The position numbers and the translations under genes are program-made. This document shows, piece by piece, positions 20,616-24,267 of a stretch of 64,000 nt of DNA (position 1 is the first letter of the stretch; every line of letters starts with the position of its first letter). Source of the DNA: Acidobacteriota bacterium (GTDB lineage: Bacteria; Acidobacteriota; Vicinamibacteria; Vicinamibacterales; Fen-181); assembly GCA_003170135.1 (NCBI GenBank), contig PMZR01000140.1, positions 4,382 to 68,381 on the forward strand. Reading direction: 5' to 3'. The notes below the pieces were generated by a model. It did not search any database. It was given only the letters and a program-made list of their open reading frames with translations, and was not told where the DNA came from.

Positions 20616-21887
<1,272 letters not shown>

Positions 21888-21896
21888 CGGCGCGCC

Positions 21897-22049
21897 TCAC
21901 TTCAACCCGAAGATCCGCAGCAGGAATGGGATGAGGACGATCGCGTAGAGCGCCTCGTCTTCCCATTGCTTCGACTTCGCGAAGTTCCAGATCATGAAGA
22001 ACGCCGCGTAGGCGGCCAGGGCGAGGTAGAGGATGGTGACGATGGTCAT
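21897..22049 (-). CDS. 50-aa two-TM membrane protein (hypothetical)
   Basis: MTIVTILYLALAAYAAFFMIWNFAKSKQWEDEALYAIVLIPFLLRIFGLK. ATG at 22049 lies just after the repeat hairpin. The stop is 9 nt from the next ATG. The longer 118-aa ORF is repeat translation. Confidence 0.55.
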   Translation of the reverse strand: MTIVTILYLALAAYAAFFMIWNFAKSKQWEDEALYAIVLIPFLLRIFGLK

Positions 22050-22061
22050 GGCGTTCCTACC

Positions 22062-22253
22062 GTGCGAGGTGCGAGGTGCGAGGTGCGACGTGCGACGTGC
22101 GACGTGCGTGCGGTGTGCGACTTGCGTCATGCCCCGGTCATCCGCACCAAGCACTCCGCACTTTGCACCGCACGGCGCACTCCGTACGACGCACTTCGCA
22201 CTTCGCACCGCACTTCGCACCGCACTTCGCACAACGCACAACGCACTCCGCAC
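22062..22253. repeat. large inverted pair of heptamer arrays (GTGCGAG/GTGCGAC left arm, NTCGCAC-type right arm)
   Basis: Left arm 22062-22126, about 9 units. Loop tcatgccccggtcatc. Right arm 22143-22253, about 15 units (gcacttc gcacttc gcaccgc acttcgc ...). Fills the gap between the permease stop (22257) and the small-ORF start. Confidence 0.95.
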
Positions 22254-22256
22254 TAC

Positions 22257-23549
22257 TTAAATTCCCGTGAGAAACCCCAGGTGCTTGCTGTACACCACCA
22301 TCAGCGTGCCCATGACGATGATGATGACCGCGGGCACCGCGCACGTCTTGAGGAACTGCCCGTACGAGCCCTTGTAGCCGACCACGTCGACCGTCAGCCG
22401 GCCGATAATCGCGGTGGGCGGCAGCGCATCGCCGAGCGGCCAGATGACGCTCATGCCGGCCAGCGCGATGATCGGGTTCAGCCCCATCTTGTTGAAGAGC
22501 AGCACGAGCGGCACGCCCAGCACCGGCGCCGCCCCCCACATCAGCACCGCTTCCGAGACGGGCAGCACGATGAACAGCGTCGCGAAAATCACCGTCACGG
22601 GCAGCGTCACCGCCGCGACGGCGAGCAGGCCGCGCGCCCCGGTCAGCGTCATCATCTGCACGAGCACGCCCACGCAGGTCAGCGTCGCGACCAGCGGCAG
22701 CAGCTGATGGATGGTCTCCCGCGAGATGCGCGCGATATCGAGCCGCACCGGCGACACCAGGATCGACGTGATCGCGGCGGCCGCGAACATCAGCGGCAGG
22801 CCCGTGATCGGCGTCGAATGCGGCCACTGGCGGCCGACGTAGATGAACGCGCCGAAGATCGTAAACGGCAGCACCACCTTCCACCACCGCATGCCGGCCG
22901 GGGCCTCGGGCAACTCGCGCAGCGCCTGCCGCAGGTCGGCGGAGGTGCCCTTCCATCCGAGAATGAAGCTGGTCAGCAGACCGGCCACGACGCACGGGAT
23001 GAGCAGCGGCCAGAAGAAGCCGACGTACGGCATGTTCACGCCGGCCGCGGTCATCATGGCCCACAGGCTGATCGGCGGCGCCGCGGCGCTCAGGCCGGCA
23101 ATGATGAAGATGATGGCGGCGGTGCGCAGCTTCGAGATGCCCATGTAGTGCAGCACCACGGCGACCATGCTGCCCGTGACGAGCACCGTCACGCTGCCCG
23201 CGCCCGTCAGGGCGCCGGGGATGAGCAGCAGCAGCGTCAGCAGTGTCAGCAGCAGCGCCCGGCTGCGATGGAACCGCGAGACGATGCCGCGCACCACGTA
23301 GGCGACGCCCCCCGATTCCTTCAGCAGGTTCATGAAGAGCGTCGCGGTGATGAAGATCAGGTTGATGTCGAGGTAGGTGACGGCGCCCTCGGCAATGTGC
23401 CGCGACGGCAACCAGTGGCCGCCCGCGGCGGCGCCGCCCAGGGCCGCGGCCAGCATGGAGAGTTCCGTGCTCAGGCGCAGCGCCCGCACGCCGGCGTAGA
23501 CGACGACCATCGTCGCCAGGACGATGGCCGCCTGGGTGAACATGGTCAC
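22257..23549 (-). CDS. TRAP-type DctM-like large permease family protein
   Basis: 430 aa, about 12 TM. The hydrophobic profile and length resemble DctM-family permeases. GTG 23549 with AGGAGG 7 nt upstream. Confidence 0.7.
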   Translation of the reverse strand: MTMFTQAAIVLATMVVVYAGVRALRLSTELSMLAAALGGAAAGGHWLPSRHIAEGAVTYLDINLIFITATLFMNLLKESGGVAYVVRGIVSRFHRSRALLLTLLTLLLLIPGALTGAGSVTVLVTGSMVAVVLHYMGISKLRTAAIIFIIAGLSAAAPPISLWAMMTAAGVNMPYVGFFWPLLIPCVVAGLLTSFILGWKGTSADLRQALRELPEAPAGMRWWKVVLPFTIFGAFIYVGRQWPHSTPITGLPLMFAAAAITSILVSPVRLDIARISRETIHQLLPLVATLTCVGVLVQMMTLTGARGLLAVAAVTLPVTVIFATLFIVLPVSEAVLMWGAAPVLGVPLVLLFNKMGLNPIIALAGMSVIWPLGDALPPTAIIGRLTVDVVGYKGSYGQFLKTCAVPAVIIIVMGTLMVVYSKHLGFLTGI

Positions 23550-23560
23550 GGGGCGGCCTC

Positions 23561-24145
23561 CTACTTGGCGAAGATGCCCTTGAGCACGCCGACCAGGTCG
23601 AGGTTCTTCTCGAAGAGGACGAGCGGAATCTTCTTCGCCTTCGAAATCGCCGTGAAGCGGCCGTCCTCGTTGCCGTCCTTGCGCACGATCATGAAATTCG
23701 CCATCGGGCAGACGGCGTCGATCGACATCTCGTCGGAGTTGTCGCCGGGCGCCGCACCCGCCGACCGCCGGCTCATGCCCTCGATGTGCGCGCCTATGAC
23801 GGTCATGCCCTGCTTGCGCGCTTCGGCGATGAGCGCCTCGACCCGCTTCAACTCATCCTCGATCGACACGCCGGCGGCGCCCATGCCCTTGAGGCTCGCC
23901 CCGGTGACGACGATGAGCGACTTGAACTGCTTCGTCGCCAGGTCCTTCGCGACGGCGTCCTCCTTGAGCGTGTATTCCACGCCGGCGCGGCGCGCCAGCA
24001 CGTTCATGGCGTTGGCGCCAGGGCTCTGGCCGCACGAGGTGATGAGCACCGGCGCCGGCGCTTTCGGCGTGGTCTGGGCGGATGCGACGGCCATCAGGCA
24101 AATGAGAGCAAGGCCGAGCGTGAAGATGCGGCTGCGGACTGTCAT
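23561..24145 (-). CDS. secreted hypothetical protein (first gene of the permease operon)
   Basis: Signal peptide MTVRSRIFTLGLALICLMAVASA. 194 aa. GGAG RBS. No motif I can name with confidence. Confidence 0.6.
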   Translation of the reverse strand: MTVRSRIFTLGLALICLMAVASAQTTPKAPAPVLITSCGQSPGANAMNVLARRAGVEYTLKEDAVAKDLATKQFKSLIVVTGASLKGMGAAGVSIEDELKRVEALIAEARKQGMTVIGAHIEGMSRRSAGAAPGDNSDEMSIDAVCPMANFMIVRKDGNEDGRFTAISKAKKIPLVLFEKNLDLVGVLKGIFAK

Positions 24146-24196
24146 GGCGTTCTCCGGGATCGGGGGCAGGGGCGTGCGGGGGCGAGAATACCATAG

Positions 24197-24267
24197 TCGT
24201 TGGTCGTTAGTTGTTGGTTGTTGGTTGTTGGTCGGGGTCGTTGGTCGTTAGTCGGGGTCGTTGGTCG
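24197..24267 (+). repeat. heptamer tandem array TCGTTGG/TTGTTGG (about 10 units, single arm)
   Basis: tcgttgg tcgttag ttgttgg ttgttgg ttgttgg tcgggg tcgttgg tcgttag tcgggg tcgttgg. Lies in the divergent region upstream of pgsB. Confidence 0.9.

What the first reader, a model, noticed from the sequence alone, without database searches (positions are those of the whole stretch)
22062..22253. Largest array: a 192-nt asymmetric GTGCGAN hairpin between a DctM-like permease gene and a 50-aa ORF
The left arm has about 9 units (22062-22126). A 16-nt loop follows. The right arm has about 15 units of the complementary NTCGCAC type (22143-22253). The element starts 4 nt after the permease TAA and ends 12 nt before the small-ORF ATG. 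The unequal arm lengths suggest expansion or contraction by slippage. They also allow alternative pairing registers shifted by multiples of 7 nt, which gives the structure a built-in slide-rule property.
Basis: seen in the sequence. Interest (0 to 1): 0.6.

Follow-up and report, generated by a model that had tools for sequence, protein, structure and literature searches.

The report
Heptamer-repeat hairpin between two coupled genes
The 192-base hairpin is real, but it is one ordinary copy of a lineage-specific family of 7-base repeat hairpins that this soil-type acidobacterium places right after stop codons, here in a gene junction that is only 0-19 bases long in many relatives.

Summary
On the mRNA (minus) strand, 17 GUGCG-type units start 3 nt after the UAA of a 430-aa membrane-protein gene. 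A 16-nt loop and about 10 complementary units follow, ending 12 nt before the AUG of a conserved 50-aa gene.

It is not special. The genome has 610 strong period-7 arrays, against 20 of period 6 and 5 of period 8. About 64 are clear inverted pairs, and this one is the sixth largest. Unequal arms are the norm.

The long arm contains a 52-nt internal duplication, so growth by local duplication is supported. Arm-length polymorphism is not: nine independent assemblies, one about 1% diverged, carry an identical 207-nt spacer. Shifted pairing registers exist but cost at least 5.6 kcal/mol.

Near relatives have no insert (TAAATG), or hairpins built from other heptamers, at the same junction. The element is therefore dispensable and short-lived.

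It matches the heptamer repeats known from Xanthomonas and Nostoc: stop-codon proximity, convergent G-rich-first pairs and depletion between divergent genes. It lacks their G-tracts.

The most likely reading is a tolerated passenger with generic RNA-hairpin effects on translational coupling.

The parts
22257..23549 (-).
   Evidence: ORF list. Orthologues at 67-93% identity occur in Acidobacteriota, Gemmatimonadota, Bacteroidota, Ignavibacteria and Aminicenantes. There is no significant Pfam, NCBIfam or PDB hit.
22143..22253 (-). 5' arm on the mRNA: 17 GUGCG(NN) units (14 heptamers and 3 pentamers), G-rich, starting 3 nt after UAA. It contains a 52-nt higher-order duplication (22156-22207 and 22208-22259).
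   Evidence: Sequence. TRF rows of period 7, 12, 19 and 52. Lag-52 identity 41/52, with the short unit at the same place in both copies.
22127..22142 (-). 16-nt loop, unique in the genome
   Evidence: Sequence. blastn of the centre of the element finds other loci only through the repeat units, never through the loop.
22062..22126 (-). 3' arm on the mRNA: about 10 (NN)CGCAC units, C-rich. On the + strand these read GTGCGAG x3, GTGCGAC x3 and then degenerate units.
   Evidence: Sequence. It pairs core-to-core with the 5' arm as 5-6 bp helices separated by 1-2 nt mismatches.
22050..22061 (-). 12-nt leader GGUAGGAACGCC with a Shine-Dalgarno-like AGGA 7 nt before the AUG
   Evidence: Sequence. In the predicted fold AGGAAC pairs with GUUUCU in the last codons of the upstream gene (unpaired probability 0.04). 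This is a prediction only.
21897..22049 (-). Gene for a conserved 50-aa protein with two hydrophobic segments, probably a small partner subunit of the 430-aa protein
   Evidence: tblastn matches directly downstream of the membrane-protein gene in most of the 160 related loci. The C-terminal motif KSKKWEEEALYVIVLIPFLLRLFGLK is conserved. Codon-usage scoring picks the 50-aa form, not the 118-aa ORF that runs through the array.
21780..21863 (-). Second, smaller heptamer hairpin ((GUCCGAA)n ... (CGGACAU)n on the mRNA) between the small gene and the AstE/AspA-like gene
   Evidence: TRF and the inverted-pair list. A similar hairpin sits in the same spacer in L179. The AstE-like orthologues align only from about residue 30-43 onwards, so the start is probably at 21755.
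20616..21755 (-). AstE/AspA-like (succinylglutamate desuccinylase/aspartoacylase family) gene, the next cistron
   Evidence: Pfam PF24827, E 5.8e-6. Gene call. A 379-aa variant is in the public collection.

Best explanation
The element is one copy of this species' own GTGCGNN family of intergenic heptamer-repeat hairpins. This kind of repeat is already described in Xanthomonas (GGGAATC) and Nostoc (GGGGAYT).

It consists of two convergent arrays whose G-rich strands point toward each other. They pair through the 5-nt core only, which gives a long rod of 5-6 bp helices punctuated by mismatches.

It sits in a junction that in many relatives is a tight, translationally coupled stop/start (TAAATG, ATGA, or 0-19 nt with a Shine-Dalgarno). 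That junction joins a conserved membrane-protein gene and its 50-aa partner.

Shown:
- It grew in place by tandem duplication: blocks of identical units and a 52-nt segmental duplication that makes the arms unequal.
- It is stable within the sampled population.
- It is evolutionarily short-lived and dispensable. Sister lineages have no insert, or hairpins of other heptamers.

Inferred:
- It is co-transcribed with the operon and folds in the mRNA 3 nt after the UAA.
- There it would act like any stable post-stop structure. It would block a terminated ribosome from sliding to the next start, and perhaps block 3' exonucleases.
- The small gene would then depend on its own AGGA site. The fold predicts that this site is masked by the last codons of the upstream gene, so translation of the upstream gene would unmask it.

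On this reading the hairpin is a tolerated passenger with generic side effects, not a dedicated regulator or a switch.
For: Family and abundance:
- 610 strong period-7 arrays, against 20 of period 6 and 5 of period 8.
- The GTGCG/CGCAC core at 7-nt spacing occurs at 244 sites, the commonest core.
- The GTGCGNN x4 pattern has 355 hits in this genome and none in 38 of 40 genomes of the same family or order.

Placement rules shared with the known class:
- 29-36% of co-directional or convergent spacers of 100-250 nt hold an array, against about 10% of divergent ones.
- 52% of first arrays start within 10 nt of, or overlap, the stop codon.
- Inverted pairs are G-first 39:1. In the GTGCG family the ratio is 66:0.
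- Single arrays that abut a stop are G-rich on the sense strand (Fisher p 1.6e-14).
- Rehm et al. 2015 report the same rules.

Local growth: the unit blocks and the 52-nt duplication.

Dispensability and turnover:
- The junction is 0-19 nt in about half of the related loci.
- Among relatives at 86-93% identity it is empty in L099, L100 and L175. It holds GGGATCA in L095, GGTCGGT in L096, a non-heptamer hairpin in L097, GTGCT/GTGCY in L098 and L179, and GTCCG in L177.
- Three of these states lie within about 0.02-0.03 aa substitutions per site of each other.

Population stability.

No sign of RNA-level selection: sense and antisense transcripts of 53 co-directional hairpins fold equally well (28 vs 25, p 0.58). 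The variable NN positions of the two arms match no better than chance (0.104 vs 0.135 null).

Position: it matches the 'ribosome termination structure' of Chemla et al. 2020.
Against: Transcription through the hairpin, folding in vivo and any effect on the small gene are therefore all inferred.

Some features are hard to get from neutral slippage alone:
- The two arms share a core far more often than chance (65 observed vs 13.9 +/- 3.3).
- Polarity is almost absolute.
- The same junction is refilled again and again in close relatives.
- The predicted masking of the Shine-Dalgarno site by upstream codons could mean real, selected coupling.

The mechanism that spreads one core to hundreds of sites is unknown.
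Confidence: 0.6

Rival explanations
1. Selected translational device. The hairpin was kept at this junction because it sets the ratio of membrane protein to small partner. It would either insulate the small gene from re-initiation, or couple it by masking its Shine-Dalgarno site until the upstream gene is translated.
For: The stem starts 3 nt after the stop, where ribosome termination structures lie. AGGAAC is predicted to pair with GUUUCU in the upstream gene's last codons. Many lineages independently have a hairpin at this junction, always leaving 10-17 nt with a purine-rich stretch before the AUG. For this element the sense-strand fold is 11 kcal/mol better than the antisense fold.
Against: Close relatives work with no spacer at all (TAAATG). 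Unit, length and loop differ in every lineage. The family shows no sense-strand stability advantage and no complementarity at the variable positions. The same hairpins fill hundreds of unrelated spacers.
Confidence: 0.15
2. Hypermutable contingency element, the reader's 'slide rule'. Arm lengths would change often by slippage, and the alternative registers would tune expression within a population.
For: Repeat blocks and a 52-nt duplication show past slippage. Shifted registers lie within 5-7 kcal/mol of the optimum of -130.6. Three k-mer assemblies break inside the 3' arm.
Against: Nine assemblies from nine samples have an identical spacer, including one with about 1% flanking divergence. The array is neither in a reading frame nor in a promoter. 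Contig breaks are expected wherever 31-mers recur at other loci.
Confidence: 0.05
3. Product of a dedicated process that works in a 7-nt register and has a fixed polarity. Examples would be repeat addition to both 3' ends of a break, or nick-primed synthesis. Such a process would lay down two independent G-strand arrays that converge. Generic slippage or inverted duplication would not be the source.
For: G-first polarity is 39:1 and 66:0. It holds even for adjacent arrays of different units (43:1). Both arms share a core, but the NN positions and unit numbers are uncorrelated. Cores are lineage-specific at hundreds of sites. There are no target-site duplications and the loops are unique.
Against: No candidate enzyme was identified. 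There are 142 unit classes in one genome, which argues against a single template. The polarity may be explained by the stop-codon rule for single arrays. Loss of NN correlation could follow from later slippage within each arm.
Confidence: 0.12
4. REP/RAYT-type or MITE-type mobile element inserted as a unit.
For: It is a dispersed family with a conserved core, located after genes inside operons, as REP/BIME elements are. Two Y1-transposase homologues are present in the genome.
Against: The Y1 genes are not flanked by heptamer arrays. Flanking direct repeats are at chance level (3.66 vs 3.61). The loop and flanks are unique. The arms are variable-length tandem arrays, not a fixed palindrome.
Confidence: 0.05
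5. Intrinsic transcription terminator, or a coding N-terminal extension of the small ORF (the 118-aa ORF 21897-22253).
For: It is a very stable stem after a gene. The array is open in the small gene's frame.
Against: There is no U-tract after the stem, and the terminator scan finds nothing at the element. The downstream cistrons follow within 9-12 nt spacing, like an operon. The extension is absent or different in all relatives, and codon-usage scoring rejects it.
Confidence: 0.03

Closest known systems
Heptameric intergenic simple-sequence repeats of Xanthomonas (GGGAATC) and Nostoc PCC 7120 (GGGGAYT), including 70-75 convergent inverted pairs per genome (Rehm et al. 2015, PMC4692102)
   Same: 7-nt tandem unit with a conserved core and variable positions. 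Hundreds of intergenic sites per genome. Enriched between co-directional genes and depleted between divergent ones. The G-rich strand is the sense strand within a few tens of nt of the stop codon. Pairs always converge and could form stem-loops.
   Different: This unit has no G-runs, so a G-quadruplex is not possible and the hairpin is the only obvious structure. This genome uses many unit classes (142), with two dominant cores (GTGCG, GTCCG) that are absent from sister genera. The host is an uncultured acidobacterium.
STRR (short tandemly repeated repetitive) heptanucleotide sequences of filamentous cyanobacteria, and the TAACTGA repeats of Beggiatoaceae, cyanobacteria and Bacteroidetes (MacGregor 2015, PMC4679880)
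   Same: Tandem heptamers in intergenic, probably transcribed DNA, with several unit types and unknown function. A TAACTGA array turned up in one related Bacteroidales locus (L061).
   Different: TAACTGA repeats are mostly direct, short (2-6 copies) and lie just upstream of start codons. Here the arrays abut stop codons and are often inverted pairs.
Ribosome termination structure (RTS; Chemla et al. 2020, PMC7518266)
   Same: A stable mRNA structure beginning a few nt after the stop codon, where the authors place an insulator against translation re-initiation.
   Different: An RTS is a statistical signal of about -8 kcal/mol per 40-nt window. This is a 192-nt rod of about -124 kcal/mol built from repeats. 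An insulating effect here is untested.
REP/BIME elements of enterobacteria and pseudomonads with their RAYT transposases
   Same: A dispersed, species-specific family of imperfect palindromes after genes inside operons. Known effects are on mRNA stability and on translation when the element is close to the stop codon (from my own knowledge of Newbury et al. 1987 and Liang, Rudd and Deutscher 2015; not read here).
   Different: The arms are variable tandem arrays rather than a fixed 20-40 nt palindrome. No RAYT is flanked by the repeats.

Membership tests
Heptameric intergenic SSR class (Xanthomonas/Nostoc type, Rehm 2015) | Tandem unit of exactly 7 nt, strongly over-represented against neighbouring periods | tested here: met
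   610 arrays of period 7, 20 of period 6 and 5 of period 8 at TRF score 50 or more. GTGCG at spacing 7 occurs at 136 sites, and at 0-7 sites at other spacings.
Heptameric intergenic SSR class (Xanthomonas/Nostoc type, Rehm 2015) | Located between aligned ORFs and under-represented between divergent ORFs and in coding DNA | tested here: met
   29-36% of co-directional or convergent spacers of 100-250 nt hold an array, against about 10% of divergent ones. This copy lies between two co-directional cistrons.
Heptameric intergenic SSR class (Xanthomonas/Nostoc type, Rehm 2015) | G-rich strand is the sense strand close to the stop codon; paired sites are convergent | tested here: met
   This copy has its G-rich arm 3 nt after UAA. 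Genome-wide the ratios are 55:10, 49:11, 26:9 and 32:7. Pairs are G-first 39:1 and 66:0.
Heptameric intergenic SSR class (Xanthomonas/Nostoc type, Rehm 2015) | G-tracts able to form a G-quadruplex | tested here: not met
   GTGCGNN units have no run of three or more G. This feature defines the G4 subclass studied by Rehm et al., not heptamer repeats in general.
REP/BIME with RAYT | Cognate Y1 (RAYT) transposase gene flanked by the repeats | tested here: not met
   There are two PF01797 matches. Neither has a heptamer array within 3 kb.
MITE or other transposon-derived hairpin | Whole-element copies with target-site duplications | tested here: not met
   The loop and flanks are unique in the genome. 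The flank-to-flank longest common substring is 3.66 against a null of 3.61 +/- 0.10.
Intrinsic (Rho-independent) terminator | GC-rich stem followed directly by a U-tract | tested here: not met
   The sequence after the stem is GGUAGGAACGCCAUG. The terminator scan finds nothing at the element.
Phase-variable contingency SSR | Repeat-number differences between closely related strains that switch a gene | tested here: not met
   The 207-nt spacer is identical in nine assemblies, one of them about 1% diverged. Read-level data were not obtainable.
Ribosome termination structure (RTS) | Stable local mRNA structure centred about 5 nt after the stop codon | tested here: met
   The stem begins 3 nt after UAA. 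The fold is -124 kcal/mol, z -5.1.
Ribosome termination structure (RTS) | Reduces translation re-initiation at the next cistron | not testable with these tools
   This needs reporter assays or ribosome profiling.
Any curated RNA family (Rfam 15) | Covariance-model score above the gathering threshold | tested here: not met
   The best hit is a plant miRNA-precursor model at 48 bits, against a gathering score of 168. This is a generic long-hairpin match.
TRAP transporter DctM (for the flanking 'permease') | Significant match to PF06808, or to a solved DctM/SiaQM structure | tested here: not met
   PF06808 gives E 0.85 and 8.8 bits, against a cut-off of 23.8. There is no NCBIfam hit. There is no PDB hit with the single sequence or with a 24-sequence profile.

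The most novel reading that the evidence does not exclude
Heptamer hairpins may not be slippage debris. They could be the footprint of a polar process that works in a 7-nt register and is anchored at gene 3' ends. That process would synthesise two independent G-strand arrays of the same core, pointing toward each other. Examples would be repeat addition to both 3' ends of a break, or nick-primed synthesis. The preferred core would be switched between sister genera. This would explain the near-absolute G-first polarity, the shared core with uncorrelated variable positions and arm lengths, the unique loops, the lack of target-site duplications, and the repeated refilling of this junction in lineages only about 2-3% apart in protein sequence.
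Probability: 0.12. Interest if true: 0.75.

Novelty: new member of a known kind. Interest (0 to 1): 0.3.

Why it matters
For this locus the result is mainly practical.
- The hairpin misleads gene callers. It produces a 118-aa ORF that runs through the array, and a second hairpin probably inflates the next gene from 379 to 423 aa.
- It breaks k-mer assemblies.
- It should not be read as a regulator of this transporter-like operon.

For the class, this junction is a clean natural experiment. The ancestral state (TAAATG) is known. At least six different fillings occur among relatives 86-93% identical, and some sister lineages differ while only about 2-3% apart in protein sequence. Within one population the array is frozen. 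That brackets the turnover rate.

It also shows that these hairpins can invade a translationally coupled junction between two subunit-like genes without destroying it. The open questions remain and become testable on such junctions. Why 7 nt? Why do the G-strands always point inward? What spreads a species-specific core to hundreds of sites?

Tried and rejected
I used independent public assemblies instead.
- Rfam: only sub-threshold generic hairpin hits.
- Terminator and promoter scan: nothing at the element.
- REP/RAYT: Y1 transposase genes exist but are not flanked by arrays.
- Target-site duplications: at chance level.
- Dispersed whole-element copies: the loop is unique.
- RNA-level selection via G-U pairs: no sense-strand advantage across 53 hairpins.
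- Rho-avoidance idea: it predicts that single arrays are G-rich on the sense strand overall. They are not (142 vs 133). Only those that abut a stop codon are.
- Complementarity at the NN positions: none beyond chance.
- Homology of the window's array with the GTGCT/GTGCY hairpins of L098 and L179: undecided. They fall in different clades of the tree and their non-repeat flanks barely align.
- Gene calling: my first GC3-based caller mis-set starts and lost a gene. I replaced it with a codon-usage log-odds caller. The distance statistics depend on that home-made annotation.
- Permease family assignment by Pfam, NCBIfam and PDB, with single sequence and profile: nothing significant.

Full report
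**Observation.** The sequence is exactly as described.
- On the + strand a GTGCGAN arm occupies 22062-22126. It has GTGCGAG x3, GTGCGAC x3 and then three or four degenerate units.
- A 16-nt loop occupies 22127-22142.
- An NNCGCAC arm occupies 22143-22253.

All the genes here are on the minus strand, so the mRNA reads as follows:
- UAA (22259-22257) of a 430-aa ORF, then GUA.
- 17 GUGCG-type units (14 heptamers and 3 five-nt units), then the loop, then about 10 complementary units.
- GGUAGGAACGCC, then the AUG (22049) of a 50-aa ORF.

The fold is far better than shuffles. RNA gives -124.2 kcal/mol (z -5.1) on the mRNA strand and -113.9 (z -6.6) on the other strand. DNA gives -71.4 (z -4.8). Nine contigs from nine different samples and several assemblers contain the identical 207-nt spacer, so it is not an assembly artefact.

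**What the flanks are.** The 50-aa ORF is a real gene.
- It is found directly after the 430-aa gene in most of 160 related loci, from Acidobacteriota, Gemmatimonadota, Bacteroidota, Ignavibacteria and Aminicenantes.
- It has two hydrophobic segments and a conserved C-terminal motif.
- The four-gene order is conserved: DUF6305, 430-aa membrane protein, small protein, AstE/AspA-like enzyme.

The 'DctM-like' label is not supported. There is no significant Pfam, NCBIfam or PDB match, even with a 24-sequence profile. DctM is only a sub-threshold top hit (E 0.85).

**The genome-wide family.** The genome is 5.8 Mb and 67.5% G+C. It is an uncultured acidobacterium, probably Vicinamibacterales, judged from the titles of the nearest loci.
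- It holds 610 strong period-7 arrays, against 20 of period 6 and 5 of period 8.
- There are 142 unit classes.
- GTGCG/CGCAC is the commonest core, with 244 sites of three or more units, only at 7-nt spacing. GTCCG/CGGAC comes second.
- These cores are lineage-specific. GTGCGNN x4 has 355 hits here and none in 38 of 40 genomes of the same family or order. GTCCGNN x4 has 241 hits here and at most 2 in any relative. Some relatives are rich in other cores.

With my own codon-usage gene calls:
- Arrays fill 29-36% of co-directional and convergent spacers of 100-250 nt, but about 10% of divergent ones.
- Half of the first arrays start within 10 nt of the stop codon or overlap it, while 10-25 nt are usually left before the next start.

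This copy, with 3 nt and 12 nt, is typical. It is the sixth largest of about 64 clear inverted pairs.

**Polarity and the two arms.**
- Inverted pairs are G-rich arm first in 39 cases and C-rich first in 1. In the GTGCG family the ratio is 66:0 (strict) or 37:1 (loose).
- An inverted repeat reads the same on both strands, so this polarity is not a matter of transcription direction. The G-strands of the two arrays always converge.
- The same holds for adjacent arrays of unrelated units (43:1).
- It matches a rule for single arrays. Arrays that abut a stop codon are G-rich on that gene's sense strand (55:10, 49:11; at convergent genes 26:9 and 32:7; Fisher p 1.6e-14). Single arrays as a whole show no sense-strand bias (142 vs 133).
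- The two arms share a core far more often than chance (65 vs 13.9 +/- 3.3).
- Their two variable positions match no better than arms taken from different loci (0.104 vs 0.135).
- Their unit numbers are unrelated, for example 14/7, 6/16, 6/22 and 11/4. Asymmetry is the norm.

Rehm et al. 2015 reported the same placement rules and 'convergent' pairs for GGGAATC in Xanthomonas.

**How this copy became asymmetric.** Identical units sit in blocks. The long arm is two copies of a 52-nt block (22156-22207 and 22208-22259; 41 of 52 identical). Both copies have the unusual 5-nt unit at the same position, and lag 52 is the best self-match of the arm. Without that duplication the arms would be about equal.

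**Is it variable now?** I saw no variation.
- Nine assemblies have the identical spacer.
- One of them (L087) differs at 10 of 1,066 positions, all outside the spacer. Two others differ at 1-2 positions.
- Three Logan contigs end inside the 3' arm but agree up to their ends. This is expected where 31-mers recur at other loci.

Minority variants therefore cannot be excluded.

**The 'slide rule'.** Forcing the arms into registers shifted by 7 or 14 nt gives best folds of -125.0 and -123.6 kcal/mol, against -130.6 for the optimum. The pair-probability mass stays in the main register. The surplus of the long arm folds on itself through G-U pairs. Alternative registers exist, as in any repeat hairpin, but nothing marks them as a designed feature.

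**Evolution of the junction.**
- In about half of the related loci the stop and start overlap or lie 0-19 nt apart (TAATG, ATGA, TAGATG, or a short spacer with GGAGG). The Shine-Dalgarno is often inside the last codons of the upstream gene. This is classic translational coupling.
- Expanded spacers in high-G+C Acidobacteriota hold period-7 arrays of quite different units, all G-rich on the sense strand after the stop.
- Among the nearest relatives (86-93% identity) the junction is empty in L099, L100 and L175. It holds a GGGATCA hairpin (L095), a GGTCGGT hairpin (L096), a non-heptamer hairpin (L097), GTGCT/GTGCY hairpins (L098, L179) or a GTCCG hairpin (L177).
- In a tree of the two flanking proteins, L175, L095 and L177 lie within about 0.02-0.03 substitutions per site of each other, yet are empty, GGGATCA and GTCCG. 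L097 (166-nt hairpin) is sister to L099 (empty).

The element is therefore dispensable and turns over quickly between species, while it is frozen within a population.

**What it is not.**
- No Rfam family.
- Not an intrinsic terminator, since there is no U-tract.
- Not REP/RAYT: the two Y1 transposase genes are not flanked by arrays.
- Not a MITE-like copy: there are no target-site duplications, and the loop and flanks are unique.
- Not a G-quadruplex former, since it has no G-runs.
- Not a coding extension. The 118-aa ORF through the array is rejected by codon usage and by the relatives.

**How it most likely works.**

Shown: it is a member of a known class of heptamer repeats. It grew by local duplication, is stable in the population, and is dispensable and short-lived between species.

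Inferred:
- The operon's 9-12 nt spacers on either side imply co-transcription.
- The RNA rod begins 3 nt after UAA, the place where stable 'ribosome termination structures' were shown in a synthetic operon to reduce re-initiation.
- The small gene has acquired its own AGGA site. In the predicted fold this site pairs with GUUUCU in the last codons of the upstream gene (unpaired probability 0.04), so a terminating ribosome would unmask it.
- The closed stem leaves only 15 nt of unpaired path between stop and start, close to the ancestral spacer length. This may be why a hairpin-shaped insert is tolerated here.

Against a selected RNA function:
- The family shows no sense-strand stability advantage (28 vs 25, p 0.58).
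- There is no complementarity at the variable positions.

I therefore rate a tolerated passenger with generic hairpin effects at 0.6, a selected translational device at 0.15, a dedicated polar repeat-building process (a question of origin, partly compatible with the first) at 0.12, a REP/MITE-type mobile element at 0.05, a hypermutable switch at 0.05, and a terminator or coding extension at 0.03.

**Novelty and score.** The kind is described in the literature and has been met many times in this scan. This copy is a new member in a new host, with a core that cannot form G4. The junction comparison and the arm-independence statistics add to the class-level puzzle but do not solve it. Interest is 0.3.

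Noticed in passing
window 20616-24145 (minus strand); L001-L080, L095-L179: A four-gene cassette is conserved at 67-93% identity across at least five phyla: DUF6305, a 430-aa membrane protein, a 50-aa two-segment membrane protein and an AstE/AspA-like enzyme, usually followed by a C69 dipeptidase. The 430-aa protein has a mean column identity of 79% over 24 orthologues. Neither it nor its small partner has any Pfam, NCBIfam or PDB match. This looks like an uncharacterised transporter family. Here it lies next to poly-gamma-glutamate synthesis genes (pgsB/capC-like).
   Followed up: partly
window 21756-21896: A second heptamer hairpin ((GUCCGAA)n ... (CGGACAU)n on the mRNA) lies between the small gene and the AstE-like gene. 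Public gene calls of 423 aa run through it. Orthologues align only from about residue 30-43, and a 379-aa call also exists, so the true start is probably 21755. L179 has a similar hairpin, with similar flanks, in the same spacer.
   Followed up: partly
window 22047-22259: The permease frame, the 207-nt spacer (69 codons, no stop in that frame) and the small gene are all in one reading frame. Read-through of the single UAA would therefore give a fusion protein. This is probably chance, since relatives are not consistently in frame.
   Followed up: no
G000 against G001-G040: The heptamer cores are genus-specific. GTGCGNN x4 has 355 hits and GTCCGNN x4 has 241 hits in this genome, and almost none in 40 relatives. 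The reversed control pattern GCCTGNN x4 has 25-27 hits in two other genomes of the order (G028, G029). Each lineage seems to have its own dominant core.
   Followed up: partly
L022:4250-4300; L008, L021, L045, L095 just after the permease stop: In some relatives the array overlaps or resembles the end of the gene. In L022 (N)CAGTAG units supply the stop codon and replace the last eight codons. The units GGGATCA, CTAGGGA and GGGGCTA resemble the conserved gene end GGGG(A/C)TCTAG. Either the arrays are seeded from local sequence, or they remodel gene ends.
   Followed up: no
L061:5091-5137; L062, L070, L072, L031 permease-to-small-gene spacers: A Porphyromonadaceae MAG carries a TAACTGA array, the heptamer described by MacGregor 2015. 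Several low-G+C Bacteroidota and Ignavibacteria relatives have AT-rich hairpins with 7-8 nt repeat arms (AAATCCG ... CGGATTT) at the same junction.
   Followed up: no
window 24196-24267: About ten GTCGTTG units lie in the divergent region between the DUF6305 gene and the pgsB-like gene. The longest ORF for pgsB (TTG at 24211) runs through them, and the public call is 440 aa.
   Followed up: no
L092, L093, L094 (Logan contigs): All three k-mer contigs that carry the permease stop inside the 3' arm of the hairpin (181-193 of 207 nt). These repeats fragment short-read assemblies.
   Followed up: no
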